A stretch of DNA of 57,949 bases, taken from positions 1-57,949 of the IMG/VR virus record IMGVR_UViG_3300010158_000078, one strand, 5' to 3'. Origin of the DNA: a virus. Its lineage: Duplodnaviria > Caudoviricetes. Positions 2,890 to 51,104 of this stretch are shown in pieces. Numbering within the stretch: position 1 is the stretch's first letter; every line of letters begins with the position of its first letter. Position numbers and translations under genes: made by a program. The notes under the pieces were generated by a model. That model had not been told where the DNA came from. It was given only the letters and a program-made list of their open reading frames with translations, and ran no database searches.

Positions 2890-3966
2890 ATGGAAAATTT
2901 TACTGTAAGAGATTTGGGAGCTGGAGAAGAAAAGTCAGTTCAACAAATCGAGCAAGAGCTTTTGGATAAGCACGAAGCTCAACAAGAGGCAATTCATCAA
3001 GAACCTTTACAACAAGAAGAGGTAATTGTAGAATCTCCTAAATTAAATGATGATGATGTTCTTTCATATATTAAGAATAGATATAACAAAGAGATAAATT
3101 CTATTGACGATCTTGTAGCAGAAAGAAATGCTCAAGAAGAGTTACCAGAAGATGTTTCTGCCTTCTTTAAATTTAAGAAGGAAACAGGTAGAGGTATAGA
3201 TGATTTTGTTAAGCTTAACAAGAATTATGAAGATACCGATCCTGATAAATTATTAGCTGAGTATTACAAACAGACCGAAGAGGATTTAGATGACGATGAT
3301 ATCGCATATACTCTTGAAGAAAAGTTCGGTTATGATGAAGATTTTGATGACGAAAAGGTTATCAAGAAAAAAGAAATCGCTAAGAAAAAAGAACTTGCTA
3401 AGGCAAAGAAATATTTCAATGATTTGAAAGAACAATATAAAGCTCCTCTTGAGTCAAGGGGTGGTTTAGTTTCAGACGAAGAAAAAGAAACATACGATGC
3501 CTACAAGAAATACGTTCAAGAATCACAAACGTACCAACAAGAAGCTGCTAGTAAATCTGAGTACTTCCAAAAGAAAACAAATGAAATATTCTCTGATGAG
3601 TTCAAAGGTTTTGAGTTCGATCTAGGAGATAAAAGATCAAAGTTTTCAGTGGGAGATGTTAACGAGATTAAATCAGCACAGTCTAATGTTAATAACTTCA
3701 TATCTAAGTTTTTAGATGAGAATGGATTGATTAAGGATGCAGTTGGTTACCATCGTGCTTTGACAGCGGCTATGAATCCAGATAAGTTAGCAAGACACTT
3801 CTATGAACAAGGGAAGTCAGACGCATTATTAGATAGTGCTCGAAACATTAAAAACATTGATATGGAAGTGAGAAATTCTCCTTCTCCTATCACTAACTCT
3901 GGGTTCCAAGTTAAGTCATTAAACGATGATGCTGGTCGAGGACTAAGAATCAAAAGTAGAAAATAA
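2890..3966 (+). CDS. putative capsid scaffolding protein
   Basis: 358 aa, acidic and helical, between portal and major capsid protein. Confidence 0.65.
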   Translation: MENFTVRDLGAGEEKSVQQIEQELLDKHEAQQEAIHQEPLQQEEVIVESPKLNDDDVLSYIKNRYNKEINSIDDLVAERNAQEELPEDVSAFFKFKKETGRGIDDFVKLNKNYEDTDPDKLLAEYYKQTEEDLDDDDIAYTLEEKFGYDEDFDDEKVIKKKEIAKKKELAKAKKYFNDLKEQYKAPLESRGGLVSDEEKETYDAYKKYVQESQTYQQEAASKSEYFQKKTNEIFSDEFKGFEFDLGDKRSKFSVGDVNEIKSAQSNVNNFISKFLDENGLIKDAVGYHRALTAAMNPDKLARHFYEQGKSDALLDSARNIKNIDMEVRNSPSPITNSGFQVKSLNDDAGRGLRIKSRK

Positions 3967-34489: not shown

Positions 34490-36888
34490 TAGAATAGCAT
34501 TTCGTTATTATTATGTGTCTCCCCGTCCTTCTCGATGAACTTGATCCATCTGCCGTTGTTATCTCTACCCTCAAGAGGTGTTACACCAGTCTTATATAAT
34601 CCAAAAGCTATAAGCCACTTGTAGAATATGGTCCTACTTATTGTCATCTTAGCCTTTGGAGCAAAGTCTGGATTGTCTTGAATAAAGTCAATATATAGGT
34701 CTTGCTTGTATATAAGCTCACCATTTCTTAGCTTGTCATTATGAGGTACTCCATCTATCATACCACACCACTCGATAAACTCATGGCATGTCTCAGCAGA
34801 TAGCTTACGGATCTTAAGGTTAACAAACTCACTCTTAACAAGTCCAGTGCTTAGGTAAGCCTTAAGGTTGTTGATCATGTAGTTGTCAAACTTACACCAC
34901 TCCTCCTCATCCCAGTCATTGAATAGCATATATCCAAACTCTATTTCAGGAGTGAACTCCTTGCTATAGAACTGCTTAAACTCCAGCTCCCACTTACGTC
35001 TCTCGAATGAGTTACCCTTACCCTTGATAGCATAGTTGGTTGTAATAACAATCTTTGGAGAACGATTAAAAGGTAATTTAATAGCGTCCTTGTTCTTTTT
35101 CTCTGTTGTTATACCTTCTGTAATAACACTGAATAACCTCTCGAAGTCAAAGTGTTTCTTTACGTCATCAAAGCAAAGTACTTGAGTACCTACGTTTACA
35201 TCAGAATAATTAAACTGTTTATCAAAAGTAAATGCCTTACCATCTATTGTTACTGCTCTTTTTATTTTACTAATAGCGTTAACAAACAGCCCCTTGCCAG
35301 TCCCACCCTCTGGGTTATCTGATATAACCTCATCATTAAGAATTATCGCTGGGCAGTAGGATGGTTTCTTGTACCCATGCATAAGAAAACCTATGGTGCT
35401 CTGCATCGACTTAACCCTCTGAGGATCATCACCTGATACATTTGATATAAATACTGAGAAGTCACAATCCATAACATCACATACTGCAAAGTCTCTATCC
35501 ACGACCTGATCCTTCCAGATGTAACCACCTAGATCGATATAGTCAATAATGTTAACGCTATCTTTTGTAACCATCACAGCACAGTTATTATAGTAAAGGT
35601 AAGCCGTATTCGCATCGTCCTCAACGAAGTAAATATCAACTGACGAAAGCAAAGATAGGAAATCTTCTTTGAAAAAACGTGTTTTATCTGCAAAATAATT
35701 ATAAACAGACAGATCCTCAGTGTTTTCAAGGTACTTAAGCACAAAATCTTTAATCTCTCCCTCCGATGTGTTGTCAATAAGGTTGTTTGTAACCTTAACA
35801 AACACAAAAGTCTTGGTGTTCTCTGGGTAGAACTTATAGAACCCATTATCCTCAAGGAACTCCTTGAACAGATAGTGAACTATATTGATCGCTCCCTTAT
35901 CACTCTTGGTCCAGAACCGTTTCACATCGCTATCGACCTGCTCTAGGACCGAGTCAATGATCGACTCGTCTATGTCAGACATTTCGTTCTTAAGCTGCTT
36001 GGCTGTCGATCCCGACTTTACCTTTTGCCTGAGCTGTGACATACGACCATTATCCTCATAGTACTTTGTTCCGAACTTATGGGTATGGCTGTATGCCGAA
36101 TTTATGGTTGTCTTAATCTCTAATAATGGGAAGTCTATAGACTCGAACTGCCCCATGATATATTCTGCCAGTGATTTATTAATTCCATAATCATTAAACG
36201 CAGCAGCAAGTATGTACACGTTGTGGTTACGCTCACCATCAATGAGTCCGTAACGCTTTGTCCACCAAGACATTAGTATGTCAACGATCTTGTTCTCATT
36301 TGTGATTGGTATTGTAGGAACCGATGTGGCTCTGTCCATCTCCTTGTACTCAGTCTTGTCAATGGTATCCCAGATCACTGAGTCATTGTTGATGTATATG
36401 TTCTTATCATAAGACTCGTAGCAAACCCTTGATATGTTCTTAGATGTCTTATCGAAGTACTCAGAATTGAAATGGTTCTGTAGTGAGTTGAAGTAGTTAA
36501 CATGGTTCTCTATATCAGCTGGAACCTTCACAAGAACCTTTAGCCCATCGCCAGATGGAGATACGAATACAGAGTAAACATACTGATCATTAGATAGATT
36601 TTTCTTCTGATCTAGCATTGCCTTCTTGCTTGGGTATCCATCAAAGTCTAGACATATAATACCACTATGCTCAGCGATAGCGTTATCGGCTCTCTTGGTG
36701 AATGTTCCAGAGAAACAGATAGCAGGAAGTTCCTTCTTGATCTCGTTACGAGAAGACTTATCCTGCTCCTGCTGGATGCGTTCAACGATTTCCTTGCTAG
36801 ATCCAGTCTGTATTCTGTTAAGCACCACATCTATATGTCTATAGAATGGTGTTGATGTGTCTCTGATATTCTTAAATATTGTTATCAT
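34489..36888 (-). CDS. primase-helicase (BT4734/VirE N-terminal-like primase + PriCT + SF3 helicase)
   Basis: KKELPAICFSGTF, CLDFD, VSPSGDGLKV, GERNHN, Walker A GGTGKGL and Walker B CFDD. Confidence 0.85.
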   Translation of the reverse strand: MITIFKNIRDTSTPFYRHIDVVLNRIQTGSSKEIVERIQQEQDKSSRNEIKKELPAICFSGTFTKRADNAIAEHSGIICLDFDGYPSKKAMLDQKKNLSNDQYVYSVFVSPSGDGLKVLVKVPADIENHVNYFNSLQNHFNSEYFDKTSKNISRVCYESYDKNIYINNDSVIWDTIDKTEYKEMDRATSVPTIPITNENKIVDILMSWWTKRYGLIDGERNHNVYILAAAFNDYGINKSLAEYIMGQFESIDFPLLEIKTTINSAYSHTHKFGTKYYEDNGRMSQLRQKVKSGSTAKQLKNEMSDIDESIIDSVLEQVDSDVKRFWTKSDKGAINIVHYLFKEFLEDNGFYKFYPENTKTFVFVKVTNNLIDNTSEGEIKDFVLKYLENTEDLSVYNYFADKTRFFKEDFLSLLSSVDIYFVEDDANTAYLYYNNCAVMVTKDSVNIIDYIDLGGYIWKDQVVDRDFAVCDVMDCDFSVFISNVSGDDPQRVKSMQSTIGFLMHGYKKPSYCPAIILNDEVISDNPEGGTGKGLFVNAISKIKRAVTIDGKAFTFDKQFNYSDVNVGTQVLCFDDVKKHFDFERLFSVITEGITTEKKNKDAIKLPFNRSPKIVITTNYAIKGKGNSFERRKWELEFKQFYSKEFTPEIEFGYMLFNDWDEEEWCKFDNYMINNLKAYLSTGLVKSEFVNLKIRKLSAETCHEFIEWCGMIDGVPHNDKLRNGELIYKQDLYIDFIQDNPDFAPKAKMTISRTIFYKWLIAFGLYKTGVTPLEGRDNNGRWIKFIEKDGETHNNNEMLF

Positions 36889-38009
36889 TTGTTTCTCATT
36901 TCGTTTATTGGTAATAATAATTCTTCATAACCACTTATGCTATCTCCAATATATTCGTGGCAGTAAGATGCTCTTTCTAATCTATTTCTTGCTGATGTAT
37001 CAGATGAACTACTTGATTTGTGTCTTATCTTATTATTCATTGCCGTTCCTCTCCAAAATTTACTTTTATTTCTATAAATACCTAGTGCTGGATTAATTGT
37101 TTTTGTAAAGCATAGTCCACCTTGATTCTTTATAATAGCACATGCAAACTCAGATAATTTAACCCCTAATCCCATTCCTTGAAAATCTGGTAATATAACA
37201 GTTCTACTTAAAGCAAATCCATTTTGGCAACCCTTTCTTGGCTGATTAATTATAGCTACTATACCAACTGGCTTATCATTCCATTCAAACAATAAAAACT
37301 TACAACTTTTATTCACATCTTCCGTTAGATAATGATGTTTTTTGAAGAAGTCCCAAGTTTCAACCTCGACTCTACTAACTTGTAATGAGATTTCTGGTCG
37401 CCTTCGATAGTCACACCTTTCGAGTGTGCCTCCCTTTTGTGGTGAACATGTCCAATCTGGCATTAACCATTCTAATATATCATAATGACAAGATGAAACT
37501 ATAATTCTTTTATTTTCTCTACGAATATATTTCTGCAATGCAAAACTCATAGCCTTTGCCACATCTCTATCTACTACAGAGGTATACTCATCAATTAAAA
37601 TAACTTCTCCATCCTTAGCTGATGAAACCAAATATGCTAATATGGCTCTATATTGTTCCCCATTACTTAGTGTATGAAATGGTCTTAACCAAGTAGGAAC
37701 AGATGATAAACCCATTGATGTAAGTACCAACGTAGCATCTTTTGGATCTAGCCAATCAAAGTTGCTTATTAATGGTTTATCTTGATCAAATTTAGGTTGT
37801 TTTAGTTCACCACATTTTTTAAGTATAGTAGTTTTTCCACTTCCAGATCCACCTAGAATAACTCCAATATTCCAATCAAAGTTTTTTGCTTCACCTAAAT
37901 TCATAGACACAGAAACACAAGTTTCTTCTTTGTTCTGAATATCAAATGCTTCATACACATACTCAGTGTACTTATCATTTATAATCTTAGATTTTAATTC
38001 AATTTCCAT
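36885..38009 (-). CDS. ABC-type ATPase fused to GNAT (Mom-like) acyltransferase
   Basis: GGSGSGKTT, LSNGE, LIDE; then KHHYL and RTVILPDFQGMGLG acyl-CoA-binding motif. Confidence 0.8.
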   Translation of the reverse strand: MEIELKSKIINDKYTEYVYEAFDIQNKEETCVSVSMNLGEAKNFDWNIGVILGGSGSGKTTILKKCGELKQPKFDQDKPLISNFDWLDPKDATLVLTSMGLSSVPTWLRPFHTLSNGEQYRAILAYLVSSAKDGEVILIDEYTSVVDRDVAKAMSFALQKYIRRENKRIIVSSCHYDILEWLMPDWTCSPQKGGTLERCDYRRRPEISLQVSRVEVETWDFFKKHHYLTEDVNKSCKFLLFEWNDKPVGIVAIINQPRKGCQNGFALSRTVILPDFQGMGLGVKLSEFACAIIKNQGGLCFTKTINPALGIYRNKSKFWRGTAMNNKIRHKSSSSSDTSARNRLERASYCHEYIGDSISGYEELLLPINEMRNK

Positions 38010-39026: not shown

Positions 39027-39290
39027 TTAGAATGGAAGTCCGTCTTGTACCTCTTCTTGTTTAGTAGGTGCCTGAGGCTGTCCTTGTTGCTTTGGTTCAA
39101 AAGTATCAAGCTCCATGTAGTGCTTGCCTTCTTTCGAAGTTTTTACCTGCAAATTCACCCATCCGTTCTTGTCGTGCTTTCTTAAAAATGCCGATGCATC
39201 CTCCACCTTAATACTAATGTTTCCCACCACGAAGTCAGGTGCTTTCTCGCTTCTTTTAAAGATAAATCCATCTGCAAAAATTTTGTCCAT
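39027..39290 (-). CDS. ssb: putative single-stranded DNA-binding protein
   Basis: 87 aa, beta-rich, Q/P linker and acidic C-terminal DGLPF tail. Confidence 0.65.
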   Translation of the reverse strand: MDKIFADGFIFKRSEKAPDFVVGNISIKVEDASAFLRKHDKNGWVNLQVKTSKEGKHYMELDTFEPKQQGQPQAPTKQEEVQDGLPF

Positions 39291-39354
39291 AATACATTTA
39301 ATTTTAATTGTTAATAATTACTCCTCGTGTGAGGTCACTGATCAGTAGTTGTGT

Positions 39355-39435
39355 TGGTCAAGTGGTGGGTAATGCTCCCACGACCTTCAGGGTTAATTAC
39401 TTCCTAATGTTCTAACTAACTGAACTACACTTGAC
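39355..39435 (-). ncRNA. tRNA-like (cloverleaf) RNA with non-canonical loops
   Basis: GTCAAGTG TA GTTC-AGTTAGTTA-GAAC A TTAGG-AAGTAATTAAC-CCTGA AGGTC GTGGG-AGCATTA-CCCAC CACTTGACCA: all four stems pair with tRNA spacing. Confidence 0.75.
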
Positions 39436-39437
39436 TT

Positions 39438-39531
39438 ATTCCAACCTTGGTCTTTCAGGGTTACTGGTTTGTGAATACTACTATTAACCCTTTTTCGTTT
39501 TTATACATCACCTAACAGCGAGCATTGGAAT
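39438..39531 (-). ncRNA. candidate structured RNA 5' of the tRNA mimic
   Basis: Closing stem ATTCCAAT/GTTGGAAT and inner stem AGGGTTA/TAACCCT; starts just after a -7 box. Confidence 0.45.
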
Positions 39532-39539
39532 TATCTTCG

Positions 39540-39547
39540 CAAATATA
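39540..39547 (-). promoter_or_regulatory. -7 promoter box (TATATTTG) for ncRNA-tRNA-like-ssb transcript
   Basis: TAnnTTTG right after the exonuclease stop codon. Confidence 0.6.
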
Positions 39548-39552
39548 ATAAA

Positions 39553-40284
39553 TTAAAGTGTATCTTGTACAAAATAATTGTTTATTTCTTCAGTTTTATT
39601 TTTACCGAAGAACTTATTGTACACCTCACACGCTTGCTCGACCTTATTCTTACCTCCCATAACGAAGTCCTCTGAAGGTTCAAACACTCCTAATTCTTTA
39701 GTGGTACTATCTATTACATAAAAAACCAATGGTTTGTCAAACAAGTGTTGGTAAATATAACATTGACTATCATAATTATATTTCTTAGCTGACCATTTGA
39801 AATCTTTAATGCTAGACGTGGTTTTAATATCAATTAAAATTTCATCTGTAACTATATCTGCCTTACCTTTAAATGGTAAACCGAATAACTCACCAATAGC
39901 TGGCTCTTCGTATATGTTACCATTTCTATATATATTCTCGTAAAAATGAAAATTAGATTTTATAGTTTTAACCATTTCCTCGACATCATCTACCTCATTC
40001 TTTAGCAATAATATATCCTTACCGCTCTTAGAAACCGCATCTTTGTAGATATTCGTAGATCTTGTAGAAGCCTCAACAACTTCAAAATCTATTAGTTTAT
40101 GAGGTTCTAAAATAGCCGTGTGAAAATAACTTCCTCTAAGCATAGGGACTGTAGGAGTTTGTTTAATTCCAAACATTTTTGGGTTTGACAATAATACACC
40201 TACAGCACTATTAGATAGAAATTTATTACCGAAATCACCATAATAAGATTCGTCTTTTCTTAATTCTTCAATTGTATTTTTCAT
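39553..40284 (-). CDS. PD-(D/E)XK exonuclease (RecE/DUF3799-like)
   Basis: FLSNS, GSYFHTAILEP, KGKADI, IDIKTT and YNYDSQCYIY motifs. Confidence 0.8.
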   Translation of the reverse strand: MKNTIEELRKDESYYGDFGNKFLSNSAVGVLLSNPKMFGIKQTPTVPMLRGSYFHTAILEPHKLIDFEVVEASTRSTNIYKDAVSKSGKDILLLKNEVDDVEEMVKTIKSNFHFYENIYRNGNIYEEPAIGELFGLPFKGKADIVTDEILIDIKTTSSIKDFKWSAKKYNYDSQCYIYQHLFDKPLVFYVIDSTTKELGVFEPSEDFVMGGKNKVEQACEVYNKFFGKNKTEEINNYFVQDTL

Positions 40285-49499: not shown

Positions 49500-51104
49500 A
49501 TGGAAAACTACATGTACTCCCCTAAGGAGTTAGTCTTCGACCAAGAAGGTCGTGAGCTATTAATAAATGGTATCACTACCATTGCAAAGGCTGTTAAGAG
49601 CACGTTGGGACCAAGAGGAAACACTGTTCTTATAGAGTCAAGGAACCACACACATGGAATCACGGTTACTAAGGATGGTGTAACGGTTGCTAAGAGCATT
49701 GACCTAGTCAACCCAGTTGAGAACCTAGCGGTTAAGATGATGAAGGAGGCTGCTGATCGTACAGCATCGAGTGCTGGAGATGGTACGACCACTGCTATTG
49801 TCTTGACAGAGGCTATTGTTAGGATCGGTATGGAGCTTCTAACAGAGAGACATAACGTTACTGAGGTTATTCGATATATGAACCTTGTAACTGATGAGGT
49901 GCTTGCTGACCTTAAGAGAATGAGTCGTAAGGTAAAAGGAAACACCTTGAGAGATGTTGCTGCTATATCTGCTAATAACGACAAAGAGCTTGGAAGGATT
50001 ATCGCTGACGCGTACCAGAAGGTCGGAAGGGATGGTATTGTTACGATAGAGAACTCACAAACTGCTGACACATACTCTGAGGTGACCAACGGGATAAAGA
50101 TAGCTAGAGGATACACGAGCAAGCTGTTCGTTAATGACTTTAAGAAGGACGAGTGCATCATGGATGATGTGTATGTCTTGGTCACAGACCAGGAGATAAG
50201 CAACATACTATCGATTGAGAATATTTTGAAGCCTATCATTAATGATAATAAGAAGCTTTTGATCATTGGGCCATGCACGAGCAATGTGGTTAACACGCTT
50301 GCAGCGAATGTGGCACAGAACAATCTTAAGCTTTGTAACATCATGCCACCACAGTTTGGGTACAAGCAACAGGAGCTTATGGCTGATATTGCATTGGCTG
50401 TTGGGGCGAAGTACTTCAGCGAGCAGACTGGAGATGACTTGAGTCTAATCAAGATGGAGCACCTTGGTAAGGCGGATAGGATCATTGTGGATAGAGATAA
50501 GACCGTTATAGTTAGATCAGAGATTGCAAACGACGAAATTAAGGAGCGAGTTGAGCAGCTGTGGGTGCAACATAACCTTTCCAAGAGAAAGTCCGAGAGA
50601 GAGGCTGTAAAGGAGCGTATCGCGTCCTTAACTGGTGGTGTTGGTGTTATATATGTTGGTGGTAACTCAGACATTGAGCAGAAGGAGAGATACGATAGAG
50701 TTGATGATGCTGTGTGTGCTGTAAGATCTGCACTAGAGGAGGGCATTCTGCCAGGTGGTGGTTTGGCTCTGTTCAATATCGCAGATAAGATAAGTGCACA
50801 AACAGACGAGACGTTTGATATGCTTAGTAACAATGAGTATGTTGCACGCCAGATAATGTCAAGAGCTATTGAGACTCCATTATTGCAGATCATAACTAAT
50901 GCTGGTAAGGATGGATTCGAGATAATGGCATTGGCTGAGGGTGGTAACCATGGTTATGACGTTAAGCACGAGGTGTATGGTGACATGTTCAAGATGGGGA
51001 TCATTGATCCGCTTAAGGTTACCAATAACGCGTTAAAGAACGCGGTGAGTGTTGCCACAACTATTTTAAGTACAAACGCAATTATAACAATAGCAAGAGC
51101 ATAA
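49500..51104 (+). CDS. groEL: chaperonin GroEL (phage-encoded)
   Basis: TLGPRG, VTKDGVTVAK, AGDGTTT, EEGILPGGG and GIIDPLKV motifs; no GGM tail. Confidence 0.97.
   Translation: MENYMYSPKELVFDQEGRELLINGITTIAKAVKSTLGPRGNTVLIESRNHTHGITVTKDGVTVAKSIDLVNPVENLAVKMMKEAADRTASSAGDGTTTAIVLTEAIVRIGMELLTERHNVTEVIRYMNLVTDEVLADLKRMSRKVKGNTLRDVAAISANNDKELGRIIADAYQKVGRDGIVTIENSQTADTYSEVTNGIKIARGYTSKLFVNDFKKDECIMDDVYVLVTDQEISNILSIENILKPIINDNKKLLIIGPCTSNVVNTLAANVAQNNLKLCNIMPPQFGYKQQELMADIALAVGAKYFSEQTGDDLSLIKMEHLGKADRIIVDRDKTVIVRSEIANDEIKERVEQLWVQHNLSKRKSEREAVKERIASLTGGVGVIYVGGNSDIEQKERYDRVDDAVCAVRSALEEGILPGGGLALFNIADKISAQTDETFDMLSNNEYVARQIMSRAIETPLLQIITNAGKDGFEIMALAEGGNHGYDVKHEVYGDMFKMGIIDPLKVTNNALKNAVSVATTILSTNAIITIARA

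What the first reader, a model, noticed from the sequence alone, without database searches (positions are those of the whole stretch)
39355..39435. tRNA mimic with intact stems but rewritten loops
Seen: a cloverleaf with acceptor (G)TCAAGTG/CACTTGA(C), T8-A9, D stem GTTC/GAAC, anticodon stem TTAGG/CCTGA, variable AGGTC, T stem GTGGG/CCCAC and CCA directly after the acceptor strand. The D loop lacks GG, the T loop is AGCATTA instead of TTCRANY, and the anticodon loop is 11 nt. Stems conserved with loops altered argues for selection on shape rather than decoding. Inference: a decoy for tRNA-targeting defence nucleases, or an RNase P/3'-processing tag that cuts the ncRNA-ssb transcript.
Basis: partly seen in the sequence, partly recalled or inferred. 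Interest (0 to 1): 0.7.

Follow-up and report, generated by a model that had tools for sequence, protein, structure and literature searches.

The report
Non-decoding tRNA-shaped phage RNA element
A freshwater phage carries a tRNA-derived cloverleaf that keeps every helix but has lost the nucleotides a working tRNA needs; it most likely marks where cell enzymes cut the transcript, and does not read codons.

Summary
The cloverleaf is real. ARAGORN finds it only at a relaxed threshold, and Rfam does not find it.

It derives from a class I (Asp/His-type) phage tRNA. Of 30 columns conserved in 20 canonical phage tRNAs it keeps 23. Four of the seven changes are in the T loop (T54, T55, A58, T60) and one is G18. 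The anticodon loop has 11 nt and no U33. This pattern does not fit random decay.

One base upstream ends a 94-nt pseudoknotted RNA motif that Rfam lacks. The motif is sometimes circularly permuted, recurs in 45 distinct phage or metagenome sequences, and mostly sits in tRNA clusters. Upstream of the same SSB-like gene, 26 of 59 related phage contigs carry non-decoding tRNA-like elements with closely related acceptor ends.

Best reading (0.4): a phage counterpart of plant-mitochondrial "t-elements", a handle cut by RNase P and RNase Z. A recent relic (0.25) and a trans-acting decoy (0.12) remain open. No RNA data exist. The scan had noted similar pseudoknot plus tRNA-like pairs in other genomes.

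The parts
39355..39436 (-). tRNA-derived cloverleaf, 82 nt. Acceptor 39435-39428 / 39364-39357 (8 bp including G-1:C73); D arm 39425-39409; anticodon arm 39407-39387 (11-nt loop 39402-39392); variable loop 39386-39382; T arm 39381-39365 (loop AGCATTA, 39376-39370); tail CA 39356-39355.
   Evidence: Sequence read. The MFE fold is the cloverleaf. ARAGORN calls it at -ps90. A single-sequence CM hits canonical tRNAs at 26-50 bits. Column comparison.
39438..39531 (-). Upstream 94-nt pseudoknotted RNA motif. It is closed by the helix ATTCCAAT/GTTGGAAT and ends 1 nt before the cloverleaf. It is a member of a widespread phage motif associated with tRNA clusters.
   Evidence: Similar sequence (79-83% identity) in the tRNA clusters of phages PM2, PL1 and Stubb. 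45 distinct instances. The closing helix covaries. The inner helix covaries and is permuted in about half of instances. Not in Rfam.
39540..39547 (-). Promoter-like box TATATTTG just upstream of the motif. It fits the TAnnTTTG '-7' consensus of Bacteroidota promoters, which I recall from memory.
   Evidence: Sequence. The sigma-70 scan also places a weak -10-like hexamer here. No experimental support.
39291..39354 (-). 64-nt A/T-rich spacer between the cloverleaf and the start codon. No terminator is predicted in it.
   Evidence: No minus-strand terminator-like site lies between 39355 and 39291.
39027..39290 (-). Downstream 87-aa SSB-like gene. Conserved N-terminal domain, low-complexity linker, acidic tail ending DGLPF.
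   Evidence: Alignment of 22 homologues ends in DD(L/I)PF. The low-confidence AF2 model has strand-strand-strand-helix-strand-strand order. No Pfam or PHROG hit.
39553..40284 (-). Upstream PD-(D/E)XK-like exonuclease gene (DUF3799), given as context.
   Evidence: Pfam PF12684, E = 4.6e-20.

Best explanation
The element is an exapted tRNA. It has a class I (Asp/His-type) tRNA body that keeps all four helices. The nucleotides that build the tRNA elbow (G18, T54, T55, A58) and the 7-nt anticodon loop have been rewritten, so it cannot decode.

It is transcribed from the promoter at about 39547-39540 as one RNA together with the upstream 94-nt pseudoknotted motif and the downstream SSB-like gene.

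Inferred, not shown: host tRNA-processing enzymes still recognise the acceptor/T-stem stack. RNase P would cut at its 5' side (about 39436/39435), giving the motif RNA a defined 3' end. RNase Z or another nuclease would cut at its 3' side, giving the ssb mRNA a defined 5' end. That would make it a phage counterpart of the plant-mitochondrial 't-elements' or of the MALAT1 mascRNA.

It is a very derived representative of a set of optional, non-decoding tRNA-like elements that relatives carry at the same locus.
For: 1. tRNA origin. A CM built from this one sequence hits canonical phage tRNAs at 26-50 bits. The variable loop plus T stem differ at 1 of 15 positions from three of them (L171 tRNA-Asp, L135:4035, L158:5516).
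2. Non-random change. 30 columns are >=90% conserved in 20 canonical tRNAs. The element differs at 7: 4 of the 5 conserved T-loop columns, G18, and 2 at the acceptor ends. By contrast 22 of the 25 non-T-loop columns are kept (Fisher p = 0.0058). All 22 pairs stand.
3. Tight packing. The motif's 8-bp closing helix ends 1 nt before the element. In 6 of 45 motif instances a canonical tRNA follows the motif directly. In L006 and L066 an ARAGORN-negative tRNA-like follows it.
4. Same locus in relatives. 26 of 59 contigs that encode the SSB-like protein have tRNA-like elements upstream of it. Their acceptor and T stems covary (8 of 12 pairs change on both sides, 0 of 500 shuffles reach this). Their anticodon arms are replaced by tetraloops, 9-nt loops or long inserts. 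What they conserve is the part RNase P and RNase Z read (established knowledge, recalled).
5. L082's element at this locus starts with the same 10 bases and shares the CTTGAC 3' strand.
6. Precedent. t-elements are tRNA-like, non-canonical cloverleaves whose ends coincide with mRNA ends (PMC1920247, passages read).
Against: - There is no RNA evidence at all.
- The element has lost the elbow (G18, T54, T55, A58) that RNase P, RNase Z and the CCA-adding enzyme use (recalled). The t-elements and the relatives' elements keep GGTTCRANYCC.
- The family CM scores it only 12.1 bits, through the acceptor alone, and the opposite strand scores 11.3.
- The tRNA-like is optional at this locus. At least 9 relatives have the conserved 5'-UTR pseudoknot without it. 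The five closest protein relatives that I read (L068, L069, L072, L074, L075) lack it. It is therefore not needed for ssb expression.
- Two overlapping contig ends in one metagenome run hint at a strain with the cloverleaf directly behind a promoter and no motif. If real, the element is not merely the motif's handle.
- An alternative fold competes with the cloverleaf.
Confidence: 0.4

Rival explanations
1. Recent relic. The element is a tRNA gene acquired together with the tRNA-associated motif. A few events inactivated it (a multi-base change in the T loop, G18>A, a 4-nt gain in the anticodon loop). It is too young for its stems to have decayed, and it has no function.
For: - The phage has no other tRNA.
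- The body is still almost identical to canonical tRNAs outside the loops, so little time need have passed.
- No second copy of this variant was found: 0 exact matches to a 28-mer in viral contigs, and none of 29 loci that share the D arm has A at position 18.
- The tRNA-like is optional at this locus.
- L066 shows a similar degenerate version of L018's tRNA-Leu.
Against: - The changes hit 4 of 5 conserved T-loop columns but only 3 of 25 other conserved columns (p = 0.0058).
- None of the 22 pairs is broken.
- Both partners of two tertiary pairs (18/55 and 54/58; the pairing is recalled) changed together.
- One contig from a mixed population carries it with 2 differences in 115 nt, while a co-occurring contig of the adjacent gene differs at 38 positions plus 5 gaps in 278 window positions. 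It is not shown that the two contigs come from the same strain.
Confidence: 0.25
2. Trans-acting tRNA look-alike. It is cut out and acts on its own as a sponge or decoy for a host factor that binds tRNA helices, such as a defence nuclease or a modifying enzyme. Alternatively it is a scaffold that carries a variable RNA insert.
For: - Related elements share nearly invariant acceptor ends (pairs 2:71 to 6:67 are identical in 26-28 of 28) around bodies that vary greatly.
- They are patchy, multi-copy accessory elements, as anti-defence genes often are.
- They occur in many genomic contexts: 20 matches in 18 MAG contigs, none of them a canonical tRNA.
Against: - The anticodon loop mimics no tRNA, so the known anticodon nucleases are unlikely targets.
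- The window's copy has also lost the T loop.
- No defence or tRNA-enzyme gene was recognised among the 35 window ORFs scanned.
Confidence: 0.12
3. Cis-acting 5'-UTR structure of the ssb mRNA. It is not cut off. It protects the 5' end or tunes translation.
For: - No terminator lies between the element and the start codon.
- In the hinted motif-less strain the promoter box lies 3 nt before it, so it would be the 5' end of the mRNA.
- Relatives carry a conserved pseudoknot in the same UTR.
Against: - In the window it is internal to the transcript, behind the motif.
- The closest ssb relatives do without it.
Confidence: 0.1
4. Working tRNA of unusual build, for example a suppressor or frameshifting tRNA with an expanded loop (ARAGORN -i reads anticodon TTA), or a chargeable non-decoding tRNA.
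For: - ARAGORN with introns allowed reads anticodon TTA with a 4-nt insert.
- The G-1:C73 pair is the tRNA-His mark (recalled).
- Earlier scan notes describe rewired phage tRNAs.
Against: - No U33.
- T54, T55, A58 and G18 are all lost.
- I did not test the window's reading frames for interrupted genes.
Confidence: 0.05

Closest known systems
Plant-mitochondrial t-elements (Forner et al. 2007, PMC1920247; passages read)
   Same: tRNA-derived, non-canonical cloverleaves that do not decode. They sit directly beside the ends of other RNAs and are proposed or shown to direct RNase P and RNase Z cuts.
   Different: t-elements keep the GGTTCRANYCC T arm; this element does not. t-elements are organellar and this one is in a phage. 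Cleavage is untested here.
MALAT1 mascRNA / MEN-beta tRNA-like elements and the MHV68 tRNA-miRNA units (recalled, no paper read)
   Same: A tRNA-like fold placed right after another non-coding RNA, so that RNase P or RNase Z cutting defines that RNA's end.
   Different: Eukaryotic or herpesviral, with no sequence relation. Those tRNA-likes keep a T-loop-like elbow (recalled).
Canonical phage class I tRNAs, e.g. tRNA-Asp(GTC) in L171 and the His-type element in L135 4035-4108
   Same: The D arm is identical except G18>A. The variable loop AGGTC and the T stem GTGGG/CCCA(C/T) are shared. The connectors have the same geometry.
   Different: T loop AGCATTA instead of TTCGAGT; 11-nt anticodon loop without U33; different acceptor; not detected by ARAGORN at default or by Rfam.
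tRNA-like elements with AGTCAGG/CCTGACT ends in related freshwater phage contigs
   Same: Same locus (upstream of the SSB-like gene), related acceptor ends (L082: AGTCAAG/CTTGACT), non-decoding middle.
   Different: Those keep a canonical T arm, and most have a class II-like D arm. The family CM barely scores the window's copy.
Mitochondrial tRNAs lacking the D-loop/T-loop interaction (recalled)
   Same: Cloverleaf without G18/G19-T55/C56 contacts.
   Different: Those have 7-nt anticodon loops and decode with dedicated factors.

Membership tests
Canonical tRNA (Rfam RF00005 / ARAGORN) | Cloverleaf with 7-bp acceptor, 2-nt and 1-nt connectors, 5-nt variable loop, and T stem abutting the acceptor | tested here: met
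   The acceptor is 8 bp if G-1:C73 is counted.
Canonical tRNA (Rfam RF00005 / ARAGORN) | T loop T54-T55-C56-R57-A58 | tested here: not met
   The loop is AGCATTA. 4 of the 5 columns conserved in 20 tRNAs differ.
Canonical tRNA (Rfam RF00005 / ARAGORN) | G18 G19 in the D loop | tested here: not met
   A18 G19.
Canonical tRNA (Rfam RF00005 / ARAGORN) | 7-nt anticodon loop with U33 | tested here: not met
   11-nt loop AAGTAATTAAC.
Canonical tRNA (Rfam RF00005 / ARAGORN) | Passes the detectors' thresholds | tested here: not met
   ARAGORN at default: 0 calls. Rfam: no tRNA match at E <= 10.
Canonical tRNA (Rfam RF00005 / ARAGORN) | Aminoacylation and decoding | not testable with these tools
   Needs bench work.
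   The window has AGTCAAG...CTTGACC. L082 has AGTCAAG...CTTGACT at the same locus.
   No hit at E <= 10 in 339 kb. 12.1 bits in the 262-nt gap alone, versus 11.3 bits on the opposite strand.
t-element / mascRNA-type processing signal | tRNA-like fold directly abutting the end of another RNA | tested here: met
   A 1-nt linker to the motif's closing helix.
t-element / mascRNA-type processing signal | Cut by RNase P and/or RNase Z; CCA added | not testable with these tools
   No RNA run holds the phage.
tRNA pseudogene | Descent from a tRNA gene | tested here: met
tRNA pseudogene | Changes spread at random, stems decaying | tested here: not met
   22 of 22 pairs are intact. Changes cluster in the T loop, p = 0.0058.
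tmRNA, YrlA and other Rfam tRNA-like families | Match to the family model | tested here: not met

The most novel reading that the evidence does not exclude
The cloverleaf is a deliberately 'de-tRNA-ed' tRNA. The phage kept the helices so that RNase P and RNase Z still excise it, which frees the upstream permuted-pseudoknot RNA and the ssb mRNA. It rewrote exactly the elbow and the anticodon loop so that translation and tRNA-directed defences ignore it. It would be one face of an undescribed system in freshwater Bacteroidota phages: constant acceptor ends (AGUCARG/CYUGACU) carry interchangeable RNA bodies, and they travel with a new, circularly permuted pseudoknot RNA that also lives in the tRNA clusters of T4-like and T5-like phages.
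Probability: 0.2. Interest if true: 0.8.

Novelty: new variant of a known kind. Interest (0 to 1): 0.6.

Why it matters
If the element is cut by RNase P and RNase Z, phages would use 'tRNA punctuation' with dedicated non-decoding tRNA look-alikes. That device is known from organelles and from a few eukaryotic and herpesviral RNAs. My five literature searches did not find it described for phages. The supplements of the csRNA catalogue (PMC10690425) may list these RNAs, and I could not see them.

It would also explain why standard finders leave gaps in phage tRNA regions. It ties the element to two larger unexplored RNA families that can be tested at the bench: the permuted pseudoknot motif and the AGTCAGG tRNA-likes.

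If it is only a relic, it still shows how a phage tRNA is disabled first at its tertiary-contact nucleotides.

Tried and rejected
- **T4 rnaC/rnaD.** I fetched the T4 tRNA region. By eye neither stable RNA resembles the upstream motif.
- **Rfam.** Nothing was found for the element or the motif: whole window at gathering, the gap at E <= 10, and 10 motif loci.
- **Orthologous copies.**
  - An exact 28-mer of the T arm has 0 matches in viral contigs.
  - Eight relatives found through the exonuclease, plus MW202828, have neither motif nor cloverleaf at the junction.
- **Shared 10-mer TAACCCTGAA** (motif and anticodon arm). 38 of 2000 dinucleotide shuffles also reach a 10-mer, so it is only marginal. 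I dropped the 'switch' reading.
- **L082/L114 sequence upstream of their tRNA-likes versus the motif.** Local alignment scores were 20-22 and unconvincing.
- **Expression.** No RNA holder is listed among 8 runs.
- **Cover.** No contig covered 39489-39519 in any of the four runs, and none covered 39520-39550 in X2-X4 (X5 has depth 1.16 there); X3 also had no cover at 39458-39488. I draw nothing from these gaps.
- **Hinted motif-less strain.** It rests on two overlapping loose ends (27 and about 35 letters) at 80% likeness. No single contig has 31 letters on both sides. I treat it as a hint only. The table was cut, so the positions of its 2 differences inside 39323-39437 were not shown.
- **AF2 model of the SSB-like protein.** Mean pLDDT was 53.6, too low for a fold search, so none was run.
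- **Integrase or tRNA-enzyme genes.** None was seen among the 35 ORFs scanned. Not all ORFs were scanned.
- **Strand.** The family CM cannot tell the strands apart. I chose minus because of the tRNA connector geometry, the ARAGORN call, the orientation of the motif relative to tRNAs in PM2 and PL1, and the promoter and gene direction.

Full report
**1. The observation**

The window is a whole, about 96% complete virus record of 57,949 bases. The element lies on the minus strand, inside a 262-nt gap (39291-39552). The gap separates a PD-(D/E)XK-like exonuclease gene (39553-40284, Pfam DUF3799) from an 87-aa gene (39027-39290).

RNAfold returns the cloverleaf as the minimum-energy structure (-22.4 kcal/mol, z = -2.52, 2 of 200 shuffles as good). 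The ensemble is split, however. The centroid pairs the D loop with the anticodon loop instead.

- ARAGORN at default finds no tRNA in the whole phage. At a 90% threshold it makes a single call, this element, read as 'Thr(agt)', or as 'Stop(tta)' with a 4-nt insert when introns are allowed.
- Shuffled windows give 0.35 such calls per 57.9 kb (7 calls in 20 shuffles). The call alone is therefore weak, and the case rests on what follows.
- Rfam gives no tRNA match even at E <= 10.
- The 'CCA' is present but out of register, because no discriminator base precedes it.

**2. It is a tRNA by descent**

I built a covariance model from this one sequence and its cloverleaf. It hits canonical class I phage tRNAs at 26-50 bits.

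A 22-nt pattern from its D arm, with position 18 left open as R, occurs in 29 viral loci. These give 15 distinct sequences, all with G at that position. ARAGORN of the 15 as canonical tRNAs: Asp 9, Ile 2, Met 2.

In the model-guided alignment of the element with 20 such tRNAs, 30 columns are at least 90% conserved among the 20. The element keeps 23. The seven differences are:
- T54>A, T55>G, A58>T and T60>A, which is 4 of the 5 conserved T-loop columns
- G18>A
- two at the outer acceptor

This gives 4 of 5 against 3 of 25, Fisher p = 0.0058.

Against its three nearest relatives (L171 tRNA-Asp, a His-type element at L135 4035-4108, and L158:5516), the variable loop plus T stem differ at 1 of 15 positions and the T loop at 6 of 7, p = 0.0006. 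That p-value is the best of 20 comparisons. D-arm identity in L145-L173 was forced by the search pattern; in L135 it was not.

Positions 18/55 and 54/58 form the two tertiary pairs of the tRNA elbow (recalled knowledge), and both partners of each pair changed. The anticodon loop has 11 nt and no U33. The 8-bp acceptor with G-1:C73 is the tRNA-His mark (recalled).

Uniform decay does not explain it.

**3. What lies beside it**

One base upstream (39438) ends a 94-nt RNA closed by an 8-bp helix.

- *Occurrence.* Its core recurs at 79-83% identity in unannotated gaps of the tRNA clusters of T4-like Pectobacterium phage PM2 and T5-like Proteus phages PL1 and Stubb. An exact pattern for the core found 15 viral and 39 metagenome loci, which reduce to 45 distinct instances. 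Two of them (L032, L059) look like chance hits inside coding sequence. Ten of the 12 viral loci I scanned hold tRNA clusters.
- *Structure.* The closing helix differs in sequence in nearly every clean case. An inner helix next to the conserved GCTNTTA box is found by a permissive script in 43 of 45. In roughly half, that box and strand lie downstream of the core rather than upstream, which is a circular permutation. The inner helix crosses the invariant GGGTTA/TAACCC pairing, so the motif is a pseudoknot (read by eye).
- *Databases.* Rfam has no such family. T4's rnaC and rnaD are unrelated by eye.
- *Link to tRNAs.* A canonical tRNA follows the motif directly in 6 of 45 instances. In L010 the motif directly follows a tRNA. 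In L042 and L044 a T-arm-like hairpin sits inside the motif. In L006 and L066 an ARAGORN-negative tRNA-like follows it. L066's is a rewritten version of L018's tRNA-Leu.

**4. The locus in relatives**

The 87-aa protein has 59 relatives in viral contigs. The family ends in an acidic tail plus DD(L/I)PF, the mark of bacterial SSB tails (recalled).

- *How many carry an element.* Upstream of the gene, 26 of the 59 contigs carry one or more tRNA-like elements, 28 distinct in all.
- *What is conserved.* They have nearly invariant acceptor ends AGTCAGG/CCTGACT, discriminator A in 22 of 28, and a canonical T arm.
- *What varies.* The middle varies greatly and cannot decode: GNRA tetraloops, 4- or 9-nt loops, or inserts that take the element to 158 nt.
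- *Covariation.* Acceptor and T stems covary: 8 of 12 pairs change on both sides and 0 of 500 shuffles reach this. The rows had been chosen for pairing, so only the covariation counts as evidence, not the pairing rate.
- *Detectors.* ARAGORN at default tRNAs in these 59 upstream regions; relaxed, it makes 18 calls in 17 loci with inconsistent anticodons. Rfam's tRNA model scores many of the elements at 33-44 bits, with large insertions.
- *Beyond this locus.* The family's 3' 22-mer occurs 20 times in 18 MAG contigs, mostly freshwater Bacteroidota. All are long tRNA-likes and none is a canonical tRNA. Nine of the 20 are followed within 25 nt by an ORF.
- *How the window's copy relates.*
  - It shares its first 10 bases and the CTTGAC 3' strand with L082's element at the same locus.
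  - Its body, however, is class I.
  - The family model scores it only 12.1 bits, through the acceptor alone, and the other strand scores 11.3.
  - By eye, its helix reads as the family's acceptor ends plus the inner three pairs of an Asp-type acceptor. That would explain the extra length. This is inference.
- *Optional presence.* At least 9 relatives have the conserved 5'-UTR pseudoknot without a tRNA-like. The five closest protein relatives that I read (L068, L069, L072, L074, L075) have none.

**5. Natural variation**

Eight DNA runs hold parts of the phage. Seven are labelled freshwater, lake or pond metagenomes, one is labelled only 'metagenome', and none is RNA.

In run X3 one contig matches 39323-39437 with 2 differences and then runs into 27 letters unlike the window. 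These letters overlap a second contig's loose end, and that second contig joins at 39569. Read together, they place a promoter-like box 3 nt before the cloverleaf, with no motif between. Neither contig has 31 letters on both sides, so this is only a hint. If real, the cloverleaf exists without the motif, and the break in similarity falls at its 5' end.

**6. Mechanism**

Shown:
- tRNA descent
- intact helices
- targeted loss of the elbow and the decoding nucleotides
- one-base spacing from a closed structured RNA
- no predicted terminator before the SSB-like gene

Inferred: co-transcription from the box at 39547-39540, and cutting by RNase P at the 5' side and by RNase Z or another nuclease at the 3' side. 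This is how plant-mitochondrial t-elements work (PMC1920247, passages read).

Against this reading:
- the elbow those enzymes use is gone here
- the element is optional in relatives
- no RNA data exist

I put this reading at 0.4. A young relic is at 0.25, a trans-acting look-alike or scaffold at 0.12, a cis 5'-UTR structure at 0.1, and a working odd tRNA at 0.05. The remainder is left for chance or something else.

**7. Novelty**

tRNA-like processing signals are known in organelles and eukaryotes. Five full-text searches found no description of such elements, of the AGTCAGG family, or of the motif in phages.

A catalogue of 10,006 candidate viral RNAs (PMC10690425, passages read) mentions tRNA-like candidates and structures upstream of gp32-type SSB genes. 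Its tables are supplements that I could not open, so these RNAs may be listed there.

Earlier notes of this scan record similar 'pseudoknot plus tRNA-like, 3 nt apart' pairs in other genomes. I did not check them.

Noticed in passing
window 39438-39531 (-); also L001, L002, L005-L019, L029-L067: A widespread phage RNA motif of about 95-110 nt, not in Rfam. Its invariant core is AAGGGTTAATAGTAG...AGTAACCC. It has a covarying closing helix and a covarying inner helix that forms a pseudoknot, and it is circularly permuted in about half of 45 instances. Most instances lie inside tRNA clusters, including those of T4-like PM2 and T5-like Proteus phages. It is a candidate ribozyme or protein-binding RNA.
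   Followed up: partly
L076-L119, about 30-90 nt upstream of the SSB-like gene (e.g. L077 1413-1490): A conserved H-type pseudoknot in the 5' UTR of the SSB-like gene. The crossing pair covaries: GCCTCAG/CTGAGGC, GTCCCAA/TTGGGAC, GCCTTAG/CTAAGGC. A strict regex finds it in at least 32 of 59 relatives. It recalls the T4 gene 32 autoregulatory pseudoknot. It is absent from the window.
   Followed up: partly
window 39027-39290 (-): An 87-aa protein with no Pfam or PHROG match. Its family ends in an acidic tail plus DD(L/I)PF, like bacterial SSB. The predicted strand/helix order fits an OB fold, but the model confidence is low.
   Followed up: partly
L082 884-1246: A related phage contig carries a full tmRNA gene (Rfam 97.7 bits) and a long tRNA just upstream of the same exonuclease-ssb junction. 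This junction collects tRNA-type genes.
   Followed up: no
L042 and L044, about 20-130 nt after the motif core: In these permuted motif copies a T-arm-like hairpin (TGGTTCGACTCCA type) sits inside the insert that closes the motif's outer helix. A tRNA-like piece is nested in the motif.
   Followed up: no
L066 2988-3078 versus L018 11175-11247: Two near-identical motif copies are followed by a canonical tRNA-Leu(TAG) in one contig. In the other they are followed by a rewritten version of it: a hairpin inserted in the D loop, a changed anticodon arm, and the acceptor and T arm kept.
   Followed up: partly
L127-L144 (MAG contigs, mostly freshwater Bacteroidota): Long tRNA-like elements, AGTCAGGTGGCGGAAT...ACAGGTTCGAATCCTGTCCTGACTA, with middles of about 50-100 nt that vary greatly. 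There are up to 3 copies per contig, and they are often 15-25 nt in front of an ORF. No canonical tRNA in 185,579 species genomes carries this 22-mer.
   Followed up: partly
run X3 laid on window 39323-39645: Two overlapping contig ends hint at a co-occurring strain in which the 94-nt motif is absent and a promoter-like box lies directly before the cloverleaf.
   Followed up: partly
23 of 59 relatives, just after the exonuclease stop (e.g. L077, L100): A conserved perfect hairpin GTGTCTTCAAAGACAC precedes the tRNA-like or the pseudoknot. It could be an operator, a terminator or a processing site.
   Followed up: no
window 36885-38009 (-): A 374-aa ORF that combines a P-loop NTPase region with a GNAT acetyltransferase domain (phrog_11143, function unknown). 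It is absent from the relative MW202828.
   Followed up: no
window 49500-51104 (+): A phage-encoded GroEL-type chaperonin (Cpn60_TCP1, E = 1.3e-63).
   Followed up: no
L005 and L013, about 20-130 nt after the motif: T5-like contigs share a second conserved non-coding stretch right after the motif (aatttgcact...ggctgtgcaaaagccagc). It is unannotated.
   Followed up: no
L021 about 3330-3900: The closest exonuclease relative (70% identity) has an ORF-bearing, Cys-rich insert at the exonuclease-ssb junction instead of RNA elements. It may be a homing-endonuclease-type gene. I did not test this.
   Followed up: no
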